33,753 nt of DNA from UHGV virus genome UHGV-0114643; one strand, written 5' to 3'. The notes beneath the pieces were generated by a model. That model did no database searches. It saw nothing but the letters and a program-made list of their open reading frames with translations, and had not been told where the DNA came from. Positions 12,356-33,207 of this stretch are shown piece after piece; within the stretch, counting starts at the first letter, position 1; each line of letters begins with the position of its first letter. Origin of the DNA: a virus. Both the position numbers and the translations under genes were made by a program.

Positions 12356-13771
12356 ATGAGCGAATTATTTAAACACTCGCATCTACATGCAGGTTTAACT
12401 GAAAACGGTGCTGTTAACCACACATCTTCAATGTCTGCACTGGTAGATTTCTACAAAGCTGCTGGTTCAAGCAGAACAAATGTAGAAGTTCTTCCAAACT
12501 TGTTTTACAAGGCAATGCGAGAAGATATTGATGTAGCAGTTCGAATCCTGTTACATATGCGAGATGCACGAGAAGGTATGGGTGAGCGTAAAGCGTTCCG
12601 TTATACTCTTACTAAAGCAATCTCTGACGGGATTCTTGATGAGTTTCAAGTATTACGTATCATGGACAAGATTTCTGATTTAGGTCGTTATGACGACTTT
12701 AAAATCTTTGTTGGTACACGTTACGAAACAGATGCTTTCAAGCATTTAGAATCGGCACTGTTAGACCCTGCAACATCGGCTCTGGCAGCAAAATGGTTAC
12801 CACGAGTAAAATCACGACACATGCGTTTTGTTCGTCGTTTCTGTAAGTTTGCAAATCTTTCAGAGAAGCAGTATCGAGTTCTTCTGTCAGCACTGTCTGA
12901 TACTGTTGAACAAAAGATTTCAGCAAACGAGTTTGGAGAGATTGATTACAGCAAGCTTCCTTCACTGGCTGCTGCACGTTATCAAAAACTCTTCAGTCGT
13001 AAAGATGGTGAGCGTTATGCAGCATACGTTACAGCACTGACTAAAGGTGAGACAAAGATTAATGCTGGTGCAGTCTACCCTTATGACATTACAAAGTCAG
13101 TCGGTTACGGTAATGCAACCGTTGCAAATGAGCAGTGGAAAGCTTTACCAAACTGGATGAAAGAGGGTGAAAACATTCTGTGCATGGCAGATGTATCTTC
13201 ATCTATGACTTGGGAGCGACATGGTTCTGTTACAGCGCTAGATATTGGTGTATCTTTAGCCCTGTACGTTTCAGAACGTAATACAGGTTGCTTTAAAGAT
13301 GAATTGATGGTTTACTCTAGCCGACCTCACTTCATCACATTGAGTGGTGATTTGCAGACTCGCTTACGACAAGTAAAGAGTCATGTAGAATATGGTTCAA
13401 CTGACCTACAAGCTGCTTTTGCAAGAATCCTTGAGATTGGTGTTAAAAACAACTTGACTCAGAAAGAGATGCCTAGTAAGCTTATCATCTTCTCTGATAT
13501 GCAGTTCAATCAGGTTGATGGAGCAGATGGTCGTACTAACTTTGAAGCAATTCAAGAAAAGTACAAGAAAGCTGGATATGAGATGCCACAACTGGTATTC
13601 TGGTACTTAGCAAACCGTAATGGTACTTGCGAAGTGTCTGTAAAGGATAACGGTGTAGCAATGGTATCTGGTTTCTCTCCAGCCACTTTAAAAGCTTTGC
13701 TTGGTGGTGAGAAGTTTGACCCTATCAGCGTAATGCTCAAAGCAGTAATGATTGAACGCTACGATTGGTAA
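12356..13771 (+). CDS. vWA-domain protein, 471 aa (helical N-terminal region + C-terminal von Willebrand A domain); possibly Ro60/TROVE-like or DUF2828-like
   Basis: MIDAS-like D-x-S-x-S in LCMADVSSSMTWE and beta-strand-like LIIFSDMQF seen in translation; fold family is inferred, not searched. Confidence 0.6.
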   Translation: MSELFKHSHLHAGLTENGAVNHTSSMSALVDFYKAAGSSRTNVEVLPNLFYKAMREDIDVAVRILLHMRDAREGMGERKAFRYTLTKAISDGILDEFQVLRIMDKISDLGRYDDFKIFVGTRYETDAFKHLESALLDPATSALAAKWLPRVKSRHMRFVRRFCKFANLSEKQYRVLLSALSDTVEQKISANEFGEIDYSKLPSLAAARYQKLFSRKDGERYAAYVTALTKGETKINAGAVYPYDITKSVGYGNATVANEQWKALPNWMKEGENILCMADVSSSMTWERHGSVTALDIGVSLALYVSERNTGCFKDELMVYSSRPHFITLSGDLQTRLRQVKSHVEYGSTDLQAAFARILEIGVKNNLTQKEMPSKLIIFSDMQFNQVDGADGRTNFEAIQEKYKKAGYEMPQLVFWYLANRNGTCEVSVKDNGVAMVSGFSPATLKALLGGEKFDPISVMLKAVMIERYDW

Positions 13772-14493: not shown

Positions 14494-14581
14494 GCGTCGT
14501 TATCCCGTAGATGGAAGCGGTGGTGACTGTAAATCACTTGTCATTATGACTCGGTAGGTTCGACTCCTTCACGGCGCACCA
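14494..14581 (+). tRNA. tRNA-Tyr (anticodon GTA), long variable arm
   Basis: Acceptor GCGTCGT/ACGGCGC, anticodon arm GGTGA-CTGTAAA-TCACT, variable-arm hairpin, T-arm, CCA encoded. Confidence 0.8.
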
Positions 14582-14813: not shown

Positions 14814-14940
14814 CAGAAGACCGTTTACAGCAAACAATAAACAATCTATTTCTCTGGTAAAGAAAAGGCGAAGGTTCGATTCCTTCACACGTTACGGCGT
14901 GTTGGTGTAATGGAAGCACTTAAGATAAATACGGTCTGGT
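14814..14940 (+). repeat. inter-tRNA element d (127 nt) with internal T-arm mimic (GAAGG-TTCGATT-CCTTC) and D-arm-like hairpin; candidate Y-RNA-like ncRNA
   Basis: Same termini as a-c; tRNA-like motifs present but no acceptor stem pairing, so not a tRNA. Confidence 0.5.
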
Positions 14941-15325: not shown

Positions 15326-15400
15326 TGTGGGTTAGCATAAATGGTAATGCAAACGGCTGATAACCGTTAGAAGAGGGTTCGATACCCTCACCTACAACCA
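15326..15400 (+). tRNA. tRNA-Ile (anticodon GAT)
   Basis: Acceptor TGTGGGT/ACCTACA, D-stem GCAT/ATGC, anticodon arm AACGG-CTGATAA-CCGTT, T-arm GAGGG-TTCGATA-CCCTC, CCA encoded. Confidence 0.85.
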
Positions 15401-15414
15401 ATTTCATAAAGTTG

Positions 15415-15443
15415 TTGACATTCAGATGTGACCACTTTAAGAT
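15415..15443 (+). promoter_or_regulatory. internal promoter-like element (TTGACA-N17-TAAGAT) inside the tRNA array
   Basis: Exact -35, 17-nt spacer, 4/6 at -10. Confidence 0.35.
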
Positions 15444-15676
15444 AACCTTAGTTTTCGTTAGCGTAGCGTCTATTTTAAAAACTTAAAAATAAATGCAAAC
15501 GATAATGTTTTTCTGGCAGTAGCTTAATAGGCTAAACACCAGCAGGGTATTCCAACTCCCTGTTAAAGAATTTGGCGTACTAGCCCACGGTATGATTAAT
15601 AAAGTGGGCAATATTCTAAAGAGCATCCCTTAAGGGGCTTGGCTTAAATGCAATGAGTGCTCTTTAAAATATTAAT

Positions 15677-15752: not shown

Positions 15753-15813
15753 ATTCTAATGGTCAAGACAACACGAGTAAGTTATCTTAGATACGCGTTA
15801 AGAGATAAACGAA

Positions 15814-15881
15814 AGTCGGAAAGTTGCTGAAGGGTAGCTCCCTTCGATAGTAAGTAGGTTCGACTCCTACCTTGACTGCCA
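15814..15881 (+). tRNA. tRNA-like element, probably degenerate or interrupted (canonical T-arm and 3' end with CCA, but no D-arm; a perfect 5' acceptor partner GGTCAAG lies at 15761-15767)
   Basis: T-arm GTAGG-TTCGACT-CCTAC and 3' strand CTTGACT-G-CCA; only 65 nt from the nearest 5' partner, 118 nt from the perfect one. Confidence 0.3.
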
Positions 15882-16046
15882 AATAGTTAGCAGATTACTA
15901 CGACGACCTTTATGGGTCTCCGCATTGACTTGAAAGAGTCAATCTCATAAGGAGGTGGTCTGTATCTCATGTTTTCCAGAACATGTAAATAATCTGAGAA
16001 GAAGCTTGACAGTGTTGAGATAACAGGGTAAGCTTCGAAATATAGT

Positions 16047-16129
16047 ATGGGACGATGTTAAGACACTAAGGCATGTGCGTAAGCCTCCAAAACTTACTCA
16101 AAGGGGTTCGAATCCTCCGTCCCATGCCA
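16047..16129 (+). tRNA. atypical tRNA, candidate tRNA-Trp (CCA inside a 9-nt anticodon loop CCUCCAAAA; D region ~7 nt too long)
   Basis: Perfect acceptor ATGGGAC/GTCCCAT, T-loop GGGGTTCGAATCC, CCA encoded; Trp is the only amino acid otherwise missing from the array. Confidence 0.45.
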
Positions 16130-17413: not shown

Positions 17414-17641
17414 ATGCGTAAACTCATTATTGAAAGGCATAAAGATGCTGACAAGATTGAAACAACACAAGTTGGGGACACTGACTTCATTCTTGTAGGT
17501 TGGAAATGTGACCCAATAGCAGCTATGAAGGTTGTTCATGGTTTTGCAGGAATTGAATTTAATCAAATCATATTTGAAACGCTATTACCAGAAAATCAGG
17601 ATACGTGTAATAACGCATATGTCCTGACAAGAGTTCGTTAG
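17414..17641 (+). CDS. hypothetical protein, 75 aa (paralogue A: MRKLIIERH ... DTCNNAYVLTRVR); start moved to the ATG with a proper RBS
   Basis: About 60% identical to 17686..17913; AGAAGG upstream of ATG. Confidence 0.5.
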   Translation: MRKLIIERHKDADKIETTQVGDTDFILVGWKCDPIAAMKVVHGFAGIEFNQIIFETLLPENQDTCNNAYVLTRVR

Positions 17642-17667
17642 GGGTTCGAATCCCTTATTCTGCACCA
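17633..17667 (+). pseudogene. tRNA 3' fragment (T-arm + acceptor 3' strand + CCA), identical to the 3' end of tRNA-Arg(ACG); duplication scar
   Basis: 30 of 31 nt identical to 17365-17395; no complementary 5' acceptor strand or D-arm upstream. Confidence 0.55.
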
Positions 17668-30332: not shown

Positions 30333-30734
30333 ATGAAGACTGAAACTAAAATGATTAATGGCAAGAAGGTAACTATTATTCTTCTTGGAGCAAGAGATGG
30401 TATCCGTATCTCTATGAAACTTGGTAAAGCAGTTGTACCAGCATTTGCACAGATGTTCTCTGGTTTAACCTCTAAAGATGGGGAAGCTAAAATCCCATTT
30501 AAAGAACTCGTTGAAGCTTGCTTTGAAAAGGTTGATGAACTAGATATTGATGCAATGGCAGAGACACTATTTCAGGGGGCAACAGTTAATGACTTCCCAC
30601 TGAAAATTGATAGTTACTTCCAAGCGAACTACGGTGAATTTATTGACTTCTTAGCTTTTGCTTTGGAGGCAAACTTCGGAAGTTTTTTCGAGGCAAGCAT
30701 TTTCAAAAGCCTAACTTCTCAGCAGGAAGCTTAA
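30333..30734 (+). CDS. tail assembly chaperone (133 aa; lambda G / P2 E analogue)
   Basis: Position immediately upstream of tape measure gene; slippery heptamer near its 3' end. Confidence 0.55.
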   Translation: MKTETKMINGKKVTIILLGARDGIRISMKLGKAVVPAFAQMFSGLTSKDGEAKIPFKELVEACFEKVDELDIDAMAETLFQGATVNDFPLKIDSYFQANYGEFIDFLAFALEANFGSFFEASIFKSLTSQQEA

Positions 30735-30742
30735 GTTATTCT

Positions 30743-30970
30743 ATGCAGACCCCGCTGACTGACGGGGCTGTAAAGGCAACTTATGATGAAGCAGATGAGA
30801 TGAAATTTGTGCTTGCTATTTATGGTATGGATGGGTGTAAAGAAACACTCAACCAACTTTTTGATATGACCTTCGTTGATTTATTATCTCTACGTCAATA
30901 TTTAGAAATCCAGAAGTCATATAAAGAAGAAATGGCTTACAACGAACTCAGAAAAGCAGGTAAAATTTAA
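30743..30970 (+). CDS. -1 frame extension ORF of the tail chaperone (GT / E' analogue); probably expressed by frameshift rather than from its own ATG
   Basis: -1 frame is open from 30647 to 30970 and overlaps the chaperone 3' end; slippery site TTTTTTC at 30683-30689. Confidence 0.5.
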   Translation: MQTPLTDGAVKATYDEADEMKFVLAIYGMDGCKETLNQLFDMTFVDLLSLRQYLEIQKSYKEEMAYNELRKAGKI

Positions 30971-33207
30971 TGGCACAATATACAGTTGATAGTTTTATTG
31001 TTGAACTCGGATTCAGTGAAAAGGTTATTAAGGGTTTGCAAAGAGTTGAGAAAATGGCTATGCAGTCTGCTCAACGTATTGAACGCAATATCAATAAAGC
31101 CTTTGATGTGAAGCCTAATAGAAGTTCACAAGACGCTCTAAACAGACTTGTAAAAAACGCTCAGACTGCTTCAGGCAGAATCAATAAATCCCTAAACAAT
31201 GCTATGAATTTAGATTCACAAGGTGTAAAATCACTTCGTAGATTAGAAACACAGGGTAAGAAAACAGCCAAAGAAATTAATAAGGCTCTAAGACAAGCTA
31301 TGAATGTTGAAGGTAAAGTCAATGTTCGTGGTGGAGTTGGTAGAGGCCGTGGTAATACTATCCCTCCGGTTGGAGGTGGTGGTTCACCTAGAGTTAGACC
31401 TGATATTGCTCAAAGACAAATGGAAAGAATGTTTAATAACAACTTCTATTCTGGTTTGACTCGTCGTCTTGAAACAATTGGTGGACAAGGTAACCAAATG
31501 GCTACTTCCTTCAGAGGAAGCTTACAAGGAATCTATAATAAGTACAAAGGTAGTGGTAAAGTTGGTGAGTATGAGATGGAAGTCAAGAAACTCATTGACA
31601 CTACCAAACGTTGGGTTATTGCAGAAAATGCTAGACTTAAGGCAGTCAGAGAGTCAGCTTGGTTACAAGACAGAGCAAACTCTTCACTAAGACAGCTTGT
31701 AGGTGGTTTTGTTTCAGCGTATGCTATGCTGGAATTAGCTCAGAAGACTATTGATGCAGGTGTAAAGAGACAGTCTGCACAGTTAGCCTCAACAGCTATC
31801 TTTGGAGGGGATACACAGCAAGCTAGAATGTTCGCTGCTACGTTCTCTCACCAGATTGGTCAGAACTACACAGACACTATGAAGCAGTACTCAAACTTCG
31901 CTGCTGGTGCTCAACCAGAGTTAGGTTTTAAAGGAACTCAAGAGTTCTATAAGAATGCTGCTATGTTCTCACGTATTCGTGGTGCTTCTGATGAAGACTT
32001 GAAAGGTATCATGGTTGCTTTCCAGCAAATGGCATCTAAAGGTAAGATTCAGGCTGAAGAACTTCGTGGACAGTTAGGTGACCGTTTGGCAGGCGCTGTT
32101 CAGTTATTTGCTGATGCTATTGGTAAAACTCCACAAGAACTTGACAAGATGATGAAAGATGGTCAGCTTCTTGCAAAAGACGTTCTACCAAAAGTCTCAG
32201 AAAAAATGAGAGAGCTTGTTGAAGCAGCAGGTGGTATGAATGCAGTTTCTAAGCAGACAGCTACCTCTATGGGTCAAGCAAAGGCAATGTGGGATAACAC
32301 CCTTGTAGCTTTGTTTAACAACTCTAGCGAAGGTATTTCACAACTCTCTAACTCAGTTGCAATGTTCTTGCAAGGTTCCCTTGGTACATCTGAAGCACTT
32401 GGTACAGGTATTGGTTACCTCTTAAAAGGTGCTAGTAACCTCCTAGATTTCGTGACAGATATCATGTACCGCATTTCTTCATTGTACTACACCTCAATGG
32501 GTTATTTCAAGGAATTAGATGCTAGTCAACAGAAACTAATCAAGGACTCTGCTGAGTTAGTTGCTACGTTCACCGCTATCGGTGTTTCAATTGCAGCTAT
32601 TACAAAAGTTGCTAAAATCTTTGGTGGTACTGTAGCATTTGTCAAGAGTATTTTTGAAGAAGGTATCTTAGCTAAGATTGCACAGAAGTTTGGGTTAACT
32701 ACAGCAGCAGAAACAGCAGCTACAACGGCTGGTGTATCAGCAACCAGAATGGCTCTTGGTGTAGGTGGTTCTGCATTAATGTTATCTGGTTCAGTTGACA
32801 AGAATGCTGGAAAGAGATTTAACGAGGTTAACACACCTAATCCTTTCAATGAAGCTATCTCAGGAATCACTAATCCAAAACGTCCAATGTTCTTTGACCA
32901 GAATGGACAACTTCAGTTTGCACAATATACCACAGACCCTTCTGGAAATATTCAGAGGGTTGATAATGGTTTGTCAAATTGGGATATTATCATGAACAAC
33001 CTGTCTGAGTCTCTAAATAACTTTGCAAACAAGTTTAACCAGACACCTATGATGATGACTCCCTCTGGACTACCATTGCAAACTAAGCAGACGCTTCACG
33101 TTTCCTTTAATCTGGATGGTAAGCAGATTGCTACTAAGATGGTGGATATCACTGATAAGAGTCAGGAAGATATTCTGTTAAACTCTAGCTACCCAGAGGA
33201 TGAATAA
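30970..33207 (+). CDS. tail tape measure protein (745 aa)
   Basis: Largest ORF, directly after chaperone pair; helical/Gly-rich and hydrophobic segments. Confidence 0.7.

What the first reader, a model, noticed from the sequence alone, without database searches (positions are those of the whole stretch)
16047..16129. Aberrant tRNA with expanded anticodon loop, candidate Trp or frameshift-prone decoder
Acceptor stem (ATGGGAC/GTCCCAT), T-arm and CCA are canonical, but the element is 80 nt without a long variable arm. The best anticodon helix (GTAAG/CTTAC) encloses a 9-nt loop CCUCCAAAA with U-CCA-A at its centre, and the D region is ~7 nt too long. Trp(CCA) is the only isotype otherwise missing. 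Expanded anticodon loops are a known cause of +1 frameshift suppression.
Basis: partly seen in the sequence, partly recalled or inferred. Interest (0 to 1): 0.5.

Follow-up and report, generated by a model that had tools for sequence, protein, structure and literature searches.

The report
Unannotated misshapen phage tryptophan tRNA
Felix-O1-like phages carry a conserved but oddly shaped gene that is most likely their missing tryptophan tRNA; standard tRNA finders overlook it, and nothing indicates that it causes frameshifting.

Summary
The 83-nt element at 16047-16129 (+) is real. It sits in the tRNA array of a Mooglevirus-type phage. It occurs in about 235 Ounavirinae genomes and is not annotated as a tRNA in any record whose annotation was shown. 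Twenty distinct variants keep four helices: 98.9% of cells are paired and 9 of 19 pairs show compensatory double changes. U-CCA-A, G73, the T-loop, the D-loop GG and the encoded CCA end are invariant.

It is more conserved than most true tRNAs in the same array. It is present in the five genomes checked that lack a canonical tRNA-Trp (four clades). It is absent from Erwinia phage Ea21-4, which has a canonical one with the same 15-nt anticodon-arm core.

I read it as a derived tRNA-Trp(CCA). Its "9-nt loop" is the E. coli tRNA-Trp loop CUCCAAA flanked by an unpaired C·A (C·C in one clade). This is a "bottom-unpinned" anticodon stem, already recorded in 267 bacterial tRNA-Trp genes. It is not a frameshift-type insertion.

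The larger anomaly is an invariant 10-nt linker (GAUGUUAAGA) between the acceptor stem and a 3-bp D hairpin. That linker is why ARAGORN and Rfam miss it. Frameshift decoding is unsupported. Hirsh-like UGA reading remains open. No expression or charging data exist.

The parts
16047..16129 (+). The whole 83-nt tRNA-Trp(CCA)-like gene, including the encoded 3' GCCA.
   Evidence: Sequence. ARAGORN -mt calls Trp(cca) at exactly these coordinates. Covariance model R1 scores it 110.9 bits. Conservation falls off at both ends.
16047..16053 (+). Acceptor stem 5' strand, AUGGGAC. It pairs with 16119-16125.
   Evidence: 7 pairs. Pair 1-72 is AU:12, GU:5, GC:3. Pair 2-71 is UA:17, CG:2.
16054..16063 (+). 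10-nt linker GAUGUUAAGA, where a tRNA normally has 2 nt (positions 8-9). G16054 may pair with C16118, giving an 8/4 acceptor/T arrangement.
   Evidence: Invariant in 19 of 20 variants (one has U10C) while the neighbouring stems covary. RNAalifold adds the G8-C pair. No complementary partner was found in the window.
16064..16077 (+). D-like hairpin: stem CAC/GUG (16064-16066 with 16075-16077) and 8-nt loop UAAGGCAU carrying the invariant GG.
   Evidence: Middle pair AU:7, UA:12, GC:1. Inner pair CG:19, UA:1. Outer pair CG:19, UG:1. Model A is -18.5 kcal/mol against -13.5 for a canonical-register D stem.
16079..16097 (+). Anticodon arm: 5-bp stem GUAAG/CUUAC (16079-16083 with 16093-16097) and 9-nt loop CCUCCAAAA (16084-16092).
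   Evidence: 4 of 5 pairs show compensatory changes. The loop is C-[Y U C C A A M]-M in all variants.
16087..16089 (+). Anticodon CCA (Trp, codon UGG), preceded by U and followed by A.
   Evidence: UCCAA is invariant. ARAGORN -mt places the anticodon at nt 41.
16098..16102 (+). Short variable region UCAAA (class I tRNA, no long arm).
   Evidence: Invariant.
16103..16118 (+). T-arm: stem GGGG/CCUC, canonical 7-nt loop UUCGAAU, and C16118 (mismatched with A16102, or paired with G16054).
   Evidence: Pair 50-64 is GC:17, UA:2. UUC and A58 are invariant.
16119..16129 (+). Acceptor 3' strand GUCCCAU, discriminator G73 (16126) and the encoded CCA (16127-16129).
   Evidence: GCCA is invariant.
16006..16034 (+). 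Promoter-like TTGACA-17 nt-TAAGCT ending 12 nt before the gene. Association is inferred only.
   Evidence: Read from the sequence. Conserved as TTGACA or TTTACA in Mooglevirus, Felixounavirus and Suspvirus, absent in Arno18/P778. It falls below the consensus scan's threshold.

Best explanation
The element is a functional but structurally derived tRNA-Trp(CCA). It is transcribed with the phage tRNA array. The intact acceptor/T minihelix and encoded CCA end let RNase P and the 3' trimming enzymes process it. Host TrpRS charges it through the CCA anticodon, G73 and the A1-U72/G5-C68 acceptor. It then reads UGG, which gives these phages tRNAs for all 20 amino acids.

Its '9-nt loop' is a normal 7-nt tRNA-Trp loop (Y32 U33 C C A A37 M38) plus an unpaired C·A or C·C layer at the 31·39 position. 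This feature is shared with the canonical tRNA-Trp of a related phage.

The real departure from the cloverleaf is an invariant 10-nt linker between the acceptor stem and a shortened 3-bp D hairpin. That linker is why tRNA finders miss it.

Shown: conservation, helices, invariant identity positions, and complementary distribution with canonical tRNA-Trp. Inferred: transcription, processing, charging with Trp, and use on the ribosome.
For: 1. Structure under selection. Four helices, 98.9% paired, 9 of 19 pairs with double changes, 0 of 500 shuffles reach the score. RNAalifold predicts the same fold independently.

2. tRNA-specific invariants: U33-CCA-A37, the UUC..A T-loop, the D-loop GG, G73 and the encoded CCA.

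3. Trp identity. CCA, G73, G5-C68 and A1-U72 (G·U or G-C in some variants) match the E. coli TrpRS identity set (my own knowledge). The inner loop CUCCAAA is identical to that of E. coli tRNA-Trp, whose sequence I verified at 100% identity in 5394 genomes.

4. Complementary distribution.
- The window, Sf17/KMM2, FO1a, Arno18 and P778 each have 19 isotypes, lack canonical Trp and have the element.
- The Sf14 paper also counts 26 tRNAs for 19 amino acids (PMC12482277).
- Ea21-4 has a canonical tRNA-Trp and no element.

5. Homology. Ea21-4 tRNA-Trp shares the 15-mer CGGCCUCCAAAACCG, including the C31·A39 mismatch, with the Felix/Susp/Moogle variants.

6. Constraint at least as strong as on true tRNAs. 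Window versus Arno18 identity is 82.6%, against a median of 72.4% for 25 same-anticodon tRNAs. The flanks are 50-64% identical.

7. Synteny. It lies between tRNA-Arg(TCT) and tRNA-Ser(TGA) in Mooglevirus, Arno18, P778 and the metagenome clade L199. The spacing to tRNA-Ser is 13 nt, typical for tRNAs.

8. Precedent. Bottom-unpinned tRNA-Trp(CCA) genes exist in bacteria, and 4-bp-stem tRNA-Trp genes are sufficient for UGG decoding (PMC13092985).
Against: - It fails the Rfam tRNA model completely and fails default and relaxed ARAGORN.
- I know of no functional bacterial tRNA with a 10-nt acceptor-to-D linker.
- The only similar cases found are irregular 8/4 allo-tRNA-like RNAs with an extra loop at this site. 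E. coli synthetases could not aminoacylate those in vitro (PMC7609411).
- Position 8 is G rather than U, and 49·65 is A·C.
- Single-sequence stability is ordinary.
- I found no expression, processing or charging data.
- One metagenome variant (L199) has two acceptor mismatches.
- Model R1 does not single out Trp: an Arg(ACG) tRNA scores 41 bits against 39 for Ea21-4 Trp.
- The host already supplies tRNA-Trp. TGG makes up only 1.0% of codons in the window.
Confidence: 0.6

Rival explanations
1. It is a charged tRNA-Trp whose remodelled D domain and unpinned anticodon stem relax wobble discrimination. It would then also read UGA as Trp, acting as a natural Hirsh-type or short-stem suppressor, and cause stop-codon readthrough during infection.
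For: - D-arm changes (G24A, A9C) and a shortened anticodon stem in tRNA-Trp(CCA) raise UGA readthrough, including in E. coli (PMC13092985).
- The element combines an abnormal D region with a non-Watson-Crick 31·39 layer.
- Ea21-4's tRNA-Trp is unpaired at both the top (U27·C43) and the bottom of its anticodon stem.
Against: - In the element the top pair (27-43) is intact. The published effect concerns top-unpinned stems, and the bottom-unpinned class was explicitly not studied.
- TGA is not avoided. It ends 9 of 41 ORFs called in the window (22%), mostly at ATGA gene overlaps, and no long conserved extension was evident.
Confidence: 0.1
2. It is a tRNA-like RNA that is not used for decoding. 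It could be a ligand of the phage Ro60-like protein (a Y-RNA analogue), or a decoy or sponge for a host tRNA-targeting nuclease or tRNA-binding factor. The invariant linker GAUGUUAAGA would be the binding site.
For: - A Ro60-like (DUF2828) gene lies at 12356-13771, directly upstream of the array.
- The Bas63 study speculated that some 'tRNAs' next to this gene are Y RNAs (PMC11482910).
- Bacterial and phage Y RNAs mimic tRNA (PMC4201824).
- A 10-nt single-stranded segment that stays invariant while the stems covary suggests sequence-specific recognition.
- Similar extra-loop tRNA-like RNAs were not chargeable.
Against: - Y RNAs of the YrlA type have their ends in a Ro-binding stem and a permuted T-arm, hairpin, D-arm order. 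This element has a normal acceptor stem ending in GCCA and a full anticodon arm.
- The GNCGAAN0-1G motif is absent from it, and there is no Rfam YrlA hit.
- Arno18 keeps the element but has no Ro-like homologue in 90,000 of its 91,660 bp.
- A decoy role would not explain the strict conservation of CCA, G73 and the acceptor identity pairs, or the exact complementarity with canonical tRNA-Trp.
Confidence: 0.2
3. It is a frameshift-prone or quadruplet/quintuplet decoder. The 9-nt loop would present UCCA, CCAA or UCCAA to read UGGA, UUGG or UUGGA.
For: The loop is 9 nt by secondary structure in every variant, and C·C in the Arno18 clade cannot pair. From my own knowledge, engineered 8-10-nt loops can read 4-5-base codons.
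Against: - The expansion is symmetric and lies outside a conserved canonical 7-nt loop whose 32·38 combinations (C·A, U·A, U·C) are ordinary.
- The same feature occurs in a standard-length tRNA-Trp and in 267 bacterial tRNA-Trp genes.
- The only recoding site seen in the window is a -1 T_TTT_TTC slippery site without a Trp codon.
- Efficient frameshifting at all 86 TGG codons would be harmful.
Confidence: 0.03
4. It is a decaying tRNA pseudogene with no function.
For: It fails the tRNA models. It has A49·C65, G8 and an insertion in the D region. The array holds other sub-threshold tRNA-like remnants.
Against: Compensatory changes occur in all four helices across at least five clades. It is conserved above the median of true tRNAs. 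It is present in about 235 genomes.
Confidence: 0.03

Closest known systems
Canonical bacterial or phage tRNA-Trp(CCA): E. coli trpT, and gt19 of Erwinia phage phiEa21-4 (L157:24578-24653).
   Same: - Anticodon CCA in the loop CUCCAAA.
- G73, A1-U72 and G5-C68.
- Class I short variable region, canonical T-loop, and GG in the D-loop.
- Ea21-4 shares the 15-mer CGGCCUCCAAAACCG and the C31·A39 mismatch.
   Different: - 83 nt instead of 76.
- A 10-nt linker instead of 2 nt between the acceptor and D stems.
- A 3-bp D stem in a different register from the ancestral GUUN/NNRC stem.
- G8 rather than U8, and A49·C65.
- Five Watson-Crick pairs above the C·A layer.
- Not detected by Rfam RF00005 or by ARAGORN.
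'Bottom-unpinned' 4-bp-anticodon-stem tRNA-Trp(CCA) of bacteria (Fakih et al. 2026, PMC13092985).
   Same: The terminal stem layer next to the loop is unpaired, so the loop counts 9 nt while the anticodon stays CCA. 267 such genes are recorded.
   Different: Those genes are otherwise canonical cloverleaves found by tRNAscan-SE. Their function was not studied. The element also has a remodelled D region.
Irregular 8/4 allo-tRNA-like RNAs with an extra loop between the acceptor stem and the D stem (Mukai et al. 2017, as reviewed in PMC7609411).
   Same: A possible 8-bp acceptor and 4-bp T stem (G8-C65), plus an extra unpaired segment at exactly this junction.
   Different: Allo-tRNAs are tRNA-Sec-like, with long variable arms, long anticodon stems and Ser identity. 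They come from soil bacteria. The irregular ones were not chargeable by E. coli enzymes. The element has a short variable region and Trp identity marks.
+1 frameshift-suppressor tRNAs (sufD, SufB2, SufJ).
   Same: An anticodon loop larger than 7 nt.
   Different: Those have a single extra base next to the anticodon (8-nt loop), which creates a four-base anticodon or shifts position 37. Here the extra bases are one on each side, at the stem end, and the inner loop is wild-type tRNA-Trp.
YrlA-type Y RNAs bound by bacterial or phage Ro60 (Chen et al. 2014, PMC4201824).
   Same: tRNA-like T and D features, and a location near a Ro60-like gene.
   Different: No Ro-binding stem or motif, no permuted arm order, a full anticodon arm, and an acceptor end with GCCA. 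The element persists in a phage without the Ro-like gene.

Membership tests
tRNA (elongator, class I; Rfam RF00005) | 7-bp acceptor stem followed by a discriminator base and a CCA end. | tested here: met
   7 pairs, 98.6% paired, 2 pairs with compensatory changes. GCCA is invariant and encoded.
tRNA (elongator, class I; Rfam RF00005) | T-arm: 5-bp stem and a 7-nt loop with U54 U55 C56 and A58. | tested here: met
   The loop UUCRAHY is canonical and UUC and A58 are invariant. The stem has 4 standard pairs plus A49·C65, and one pair covaries GC to UA.
tRNA (elongator, class I; Rfam RF00005) | Anticodon arm: 5-bp stem and a 7-nt loop with U33 and a purine at 37. | tested here: inconclusive
   The 5-bp stem has 4 covarying pairs, and U precedes and A follows CCA. 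However, 9 nt are unpaired. It can be read as a 7-nt loop plus an unpaired 31·39 layer.
tRNA (elongator, class I; Rfam RF00005) | 2-nt connector (U8, N9), then a 3-4-bp D stem with G18 G19 in the loop. | tested here: not met
   The connector is 10 nt and starts with G. The D hairpin of 3 bp with an invariant GG is present and covaries.
tRNA (elongator, class I; Rfam RF00005) | Scores at or above the family's gathering threshold (29 bits). | tested here: not met
   No RF00005 hit at the locus, even at E<=10.
tRNA (elongator, class I; Rfam RF00005) | Aminoacylated and used by the ribosome. | not testable with these tools
   No expression or charging data were found in the searchable literature.
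tRNA-Trp (E. coli-type TrpRS identity set; own knowledge, Himeno et al. 1991) | Anticodon C34 C35 A36. | tested here: met
   Invariant in 20 of 20 variants.
tRNA-Trp (E. coli-type TrpRS identity set; own knowledge, Himeno et al. 1991) | Discriminator G73, with A1-U72 and G5-C68. | tested here: met
   G73 and G5-C68 are invariant. Pair 1-72 is AU:12, GU:5, GC:3. The E. coli reference sequence was verified.
tRNA-Trp (E. coli-type TrpRS identity set; own knowledge, Himeno et al. 1991) | It is the only Trp-anticodon gene in its genome, and is replaced by a canonical gene in relatives. | tested here: met
   Five element-bearing genomes lack a canonical Trp. Ea21-4 has a canonical Trp and no element.
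+1 frameshift-suppressor tRNA | An extra nucleotide within or adjacent to the anticodon (8-nt loop). | tested here: not met
   The inner 7 nt equal the wild-type tRNA-Trp loop. The extra nucleotides are the outermost ones on both sides.
+1 frameshift-suppressor tRNA | Genes that need +1 or quadruplet decoding. | tested here: inconclusive
   Only 33.7 kb of the genome was examined. The one recoding site seen is a -1 T_TTT_TTC at 30683-30689.
Short-anticodon-stem or Hirsh-type UGA-reading tRNA-Trp(CCA) | An unpaired 27·43 at the top of the stem with a 7-nt loop, or G24A/A9C in an otherwise canonical D arm. | tested here: not met
   The top pair is Watson-Crick and covaries. The D arm cannot be aligned to positions 9 and 24.
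Short-anticodon-stem or Hirsh-type UGA-reading tRNA-Trp(CCA) | Reduced use of UGA as a stop codon, or in-frame UGA codons. | tested here: not met
   TGA ends 9 of 41 window ORFs.
YrlA / Y RNA | A Ro-binding helix formed by the 5' and 3' ends, with GNCGAAN0-1G, and a permuted tRNA-like domain. | tested here: not met
   The motif is absent from the element. There is no RF02553 hit. The arm order is that of a normal tRNA.
YrlA / Y RNA | Co-occurrence with a Ro60 orthologue. | tested here: not met
   It lies 2.3 kb from a Ro-like gene in the window. Arno18 has the element and no Ro-like homologue.

The most novel reading that the evidence does not exclude
The remodelled D domain (10-nt invariant linker, 3-bp D stem, possible 8/4 stacking) and the unpaired 31·39 layer may be adaptive rather than tolerated defects. 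Together they could make a phage tRNA-Trp(CCA) that does one of two things. It could read UGA as well as UGG, as a natural Hirsh-like suppressor that extends some phage or host proteins. Or it could stay functional when a host tRNA-targeting defence disables the canonical tRNA-Trp, with the linker serving as a recognition or evasion element.
Probability: 0.12. Interest if true: 0.8.

Novelty: new variant of a known kind. Interest (0 to 1): 0.55.

Why it matters
Felix O1-like phages are model and therapeutic phages, and their tRNA sets have been analysed repeatedly. One dedicated study counts tRNAs for 19 amino acids (PMC12482277). If this RNA is a working tRNA-Trp, these phages carry a full 20-amino-acid set. 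Codon-usage and defence-evasion analyses would then need revising. Standard tRNA finders would be shown to miss a conserved class of phage tRNA.

A recent paper states that all known bacterial tRNAs are canonical cloverleaves (PMC11551756 abstract). A natural tRNA used in E. coli, Salmonella and Citrobacter cells with a 10-nt acceptor-to-D linker would be a ready-made test of how much D-domain distortion TrpRS, EF-Tu and the ribosome tolerate. It would also be a natural entry point to the unstudied 'bottom-unpinned' tRNA-Trp class and its possible link to UGA reading.

Tried and rejected
1. Alternative cloverleaf. Relaxed ARAGORN (-ps80 and lower) gives an 88-nt fold that uses the D hairpin as an 8-nt 'aagg' anticodon loop and the CCA arm as a long variable arm. 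I rejected it because its acceptor stem is mismatched and shifted, contrary to the 1-72 and 2-71 covariation.

2. Canonical-register D stem (GUUA with GAGC or GUGC, as in E. coli and Ea21-4). This is attractive on grounds of homology. It is 4-5 kcal/mol worse, and the U·U, U·C and A·A or A·G pairs in the Moogle, Arno and L199 variants contradict it. The CAC/GUG hairpin covaries through AU, UA, GC and CG, UA.

3. Pseudoknot UGUU/GGCA. It is kept only through wobble pairs and is broken in one variant. Not adopted.

4. Pairing of the linker with the 3' trailer (UAAGAC/GUCUUA). It is not conserved in SUSP2 or Arno18. No other complement was found in the window, and the 10-mer is not enriched.

5. 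Host origin. No blastn match in 5,426 E. coli genomes at E<=10.

6. More distant homologues. Two IMG/VR pattern scans and one metagenome scan returned only Ounavirinae-type contigs, plus one new clade, L199.

7. Covariance model R1 as a Trp-specific detector. Ea21-4 Trp was the best non-self hit in one search at 39.4 bits. An Arg(ACG) tRNA reached 41.2 bits in another. I therefore do not use the model score as evidence of Trp homology.

8. Y-RNA reading. Rejected on topology, on the missing motif, and on Arno18 lacking the Ro-like gene.

9. Literature searches for Felixounavirus tRNA-Trp or for expression data found nothing.

Full report
**Context.** The window belongs to an Ounavirinae myovirus of the Mooglevirus type. 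It is 99.6% identical over the local 737 bp to Citrobacter phage BSwM KMM2 and 97-98% identical to Shigella phage Sf17. A tRNA array runs from about 13.9 to 19.3 kb on the + strand. It lies between a Ro60-like/DUF2828 gene (12356-13771) and the large terminase. ARAGORN finds 25 tRNAs there. Rfam finds 23 at gathering threshold.

**The observation.**
- A 7-bp acceptor helix, G73 and an encoded CCA.
- A canonical T-loop.
- A GUAAG/CUUAC helix around the 9-nt loop CCUCCAAAA.
- About 25 nt between the acceptor and anticodon stems.

Default ARAGORN and the Rfam tRNA model miss it, the latter even at E<=10. ARAGORN in metazoan-mitochondrial mode calls exactly these coordinates as Trp(cca), with the anticodon at nt 41. 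In the other tRNAs the anticodon starts at nt 33-38. Relaxed standard ARAGORN offers only a shifted 88-nt fold with a mismatched acceptor stem. The single-sequence folding energy is not unusual (z = -1.0). The sequence alone would therefore not prove anything.

Trp is indeed the only missing isotype. tRNA-Tyr(GTA) at 14494-14581 is recovered at a slightly relaxed threshold and is annotated in Sf17.

**Comparative evidence.**
- blastn finds the element in 237 phage records (Felixounavirus, Mooglevirus, Suspvirus, and the Pectobacterium Arno18/Wc4 and Yersinia P778 group). In the rows listed, the annotation under the match is 'none' or 'hypothetical protein', never a tRNA.
- I collected 20 distinct variants from phage records, IMG/VR and metagenomes.
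- 98.9% of cells in the 19 proposed pairs are standard pairs, and 9 pairs show changes on both sides.
- The covariation score is 0.373, against 0.146 for column shuffles (0 of 500 reach it) and at most 0.065 for slid registers.
- RNAalifold predicts the same four helices on its own, plus a G8-C65 pair.
- The anticodon stem runs through GUAAG/CUUAC, GUAGG/CCUAC, AACGG/CCGUU, GACGG/CCGUU, GUAAG/CUUGC and ACUUG/CAAGU.
- The small D hairpin runs through CAC/GUG, CUC/GAG, UAC/GUG and CGU/ACG.
- UCCAA, G73, GCCA, the T-loop UUC..A and the D-loop GG never change.
- No ORF of 60 aa or more overlaps the element.
- Between the window and Arno18 the element is 82.6% identical. The 25 same-anticodon tRNAs have a median of 72.4%, and the 50-nt flanks are 50-64% identical.

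This is a structured RNA gene under purifying selection. Its boundaries coincide with a tRNA's 5' end and CCA end.

**Which tRNA.** Every lineage that has the element lacks a detectable tRNA-Trp and has the other 19 isotypes. This holds for the window, Sf17 and KMM2, FO1a and P778 and Arno18. A dedicated study of the close relative Sf14 likewise counts 26 tRNAs for 19 amino acids (PMC12482277).

Erwinia phage phiEa21-4 (Kolesnikvirus, same subfamily) has an ordinary 76-nt tRNA-Trp(CCA) between tRNA-Gly and tRNA-Thr. It has no copy of the element. In the window, Gly and Thr are adjacent.

The Ea21-4 tRNA-Trp shares the 15-mer CGGCCUCCAAAACCG with the Felix, Susp and Moogle variants. ARAGORN draws it with a C31·A39 mismatch under the loop CUCCAAA. 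The inner seven loop bases of the window element are identical to the E. coli tRNA-Trp loop, whose sequence I checked against 5,426 genomes. G73, G5-C68 and mostly A1-U72 match what I recall as the E. coli TrpRS identity set (Himeno et al. 1991; my own knowledge, not tested here).

**The loop.** By base-pair count the loop has 9 nt in all variants. The extra bases are the outermost ones: C on the 5' side, and A (or C in the Arno18 clade) on the 3' side. The inner 32·38 combinations (C·A, U·A, U·C) are ordinary. The same unpaired 31·39 layer occurs in the otherwise standard Ea21-4 tRNA-Trp. It also occurs in 267 bacterial tRNA-Trp(CCA) genes, which Fakih et al. 2026 set aside as 'unpinned at the very bottom, lengthening the loop by 2 nt' (PMC13092985).

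This is a different thing from the anticodon-adjacent single-base insertions of classical +1 suppressors. I found no sign of frameshift-dependent genes. The one recoding site in the window's late genes is a textbook -1 T_TTT_TTC (30683-30689), between the two tail-chaperone ORFs upstream of the tape-measure gene.

**The real anomaly.** Between the acceptor stem and the D hairpin lie 10 nt, GAUGUUAAGA, where tRNAs have two. This stretch is invariant in 19 of 20 variants while the stems around it covary.

By homology with Ea21-4 and E. coli, GUUA looks like the old 5' strand of the D stem (GUUU/GUUC), and GGCA looks like G18 G19 N20 A21. The old register pairs poorly, however. It gives U·U in the Moogle and Arno types and U·C in L199, and it costs 4-5 kcal/mol relative to the new CAC/GUG hairpin. 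The new hairpin is the one that covaries.

I therefore favour the following layout:
- acceptor stem of 7 bp (possibly 8, with G8-C65);
- a 9-10-nt linker;
- a 3-bp D hairpin with an 8-nt loop;
- one nucleotide;
- a 5-bp anticodon stem;
- a 5-nt variable region;
- a 4-bp T stem.

The only published parallel I found for a loop at this junction is a set of irregular 8/4 allo-tRNA-like RNAs from soil. E. coli synthetases could not charge those (PMC7609411). That is a caution against assuming function.

**Rivals.**
- *Y-RNA-like partner for the neighbouring Ro60-like protein.* This idea has been floated for Bas63 (PMC11482910). The element has the wrong topology and lacks the Ro-binding motif. Arno18 keeps the element without any Ro-like homologue in 90,000 of its 91,660 bp.
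- *Pseudogene.* Excluded by the covariation.
- *UGA-reading variant.* This is the most interesting open possibility. D-arm mutations and shortened anticodon stems make tRNA-Trp(CCA) read UGA, including in E. coli. Against it, the element's top stem pair is intact, the bottom-unpinned class is untested, and TGA ends 22% of window ORFs.

**Verdict.** The Trp assignment is well supported by comparative evidence. The frameshift idea is not supported.

The element is best described as a previously unannotated, structurally non-canonical variant of tRNA-Trp, specific to most Ounavirinae. I put 0.6 on its being charged and used for UGG, because no expression, processing or aminoacylation data exist and the D-domain architecture has no proven functional precedent in bacteria.

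Noticed in passing
window 12356-13771 (+): A 471-aa Ro60-like/DUF2828 'RNA-binding protein' gene lies directly upstream of the tRNA array. Homologues occur in mycobacteriophages and in Listeria, Staphylococcus, Enterococcus, Campylobacter and Vibrio phages. In Bas63 the homologue gp130 was reported to counter the ppl defence (PMC11482910). No homologue was found in Arno18 (90,000 of 91,660 bp searched) or in the first 50 kb of Ea21-4.
   Followed up: partly
window 15949-15984 (+); also L157:24411-24442 and L199:1246-1276: A conserved 20-mer, AAGGAGGTGGTCTGTATCTC, is followed by a short hairpin that varies in sequence. It starts with a near-perfect complement of the 16S rRNA 3' end (UAAGGAGGUGAUC; my own knowledge). 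In the window it precedes a 7-codon mini-ORF (ATG at 15969). In Ea21-4 and L199 no ATG follows. In all three it lies 80-150 nt upstream of the Trp gene or the Gly-Trp pair. Its function is unknown.
   Followed up: partly
window 14820-14894 (+), extending to about 14925: A tRNA-like element just under the Rfam threshold (28.8 against 29 bits), with a poor acceptor stem and the loop CUGGUAA. It contains GGCGAAGG, the only match in the array to the bacterial Ro-binding motif GNCGAAN0-1G. After it come a T-arm, then a hairpin (ACACG...CGUGU), then a D-arm-like GUGU-AAUGGAAG-CAC. That order recalls YrlA Y RNAs, so it may be the Ro-like protein's partner. The Rfam YrlA model does not hit it.
   Followed up: partly
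window 14494-14581 (+): tRNA-Tyr(GTA) with a long variable arm. Default ARAGORN misses it and it is below the Rfam threshold (22.8 bits). It is found at -ps90 and is annotated in Sf17.
   Followed up: yes
window 15803-15881 (+) and 17596-17664 (+): Two further weak tRNA-like remnants in gaps of the array. The first is called 'tRNA-Ala(agc)' by ARAGORN at -ps90. The second scores 19.6 bits in Rfam and is called Val(gac) by ARAGORN -mt.
   Followed up: no
window 15340-15581 (+): Sub-threshold Rfam hits to permuted tmRNA (34.7 against 47 bits) and to alpha-tmRNA. They overlap tRNA-Ile and the following spacer. They probably reflect tRNA-likeness.
   Followed up: no
window 30683-30689 (+): A classical -1 slippery heptamer, T_TTT_TTC, near the end of ORF 30333-30734. 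ORF 30743-30970 lies in the -1 frame, just before the tape-measure gene (30970-33207). This is the expected tail-assembly-chaperone frameshift.
   Followed up: partly
L157:24578-24653 (Erwinia phage phiEa21-4 tRNA-Trp): This annotated canonical tRNA-Trp has only three Watson-Crick pairs in its anticodon stem. It has U27·C43 at the top and C31·A39 at the bottom. It therefore combines the 'Blastocrithidia-like' top unpinning linked to UGA reading with the bottom unpinning.
   Followed up: partly
L199:1339-1422 (metagenome contig JACCDR010813160.1): A divergent clade of the element. It has fully compensated D and anticodon stems but two mismatches (U2·U71, C3·U70) in the acceptor stem. This is either sequencing error in a short contig or a decaying copy.
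   Followed up: no
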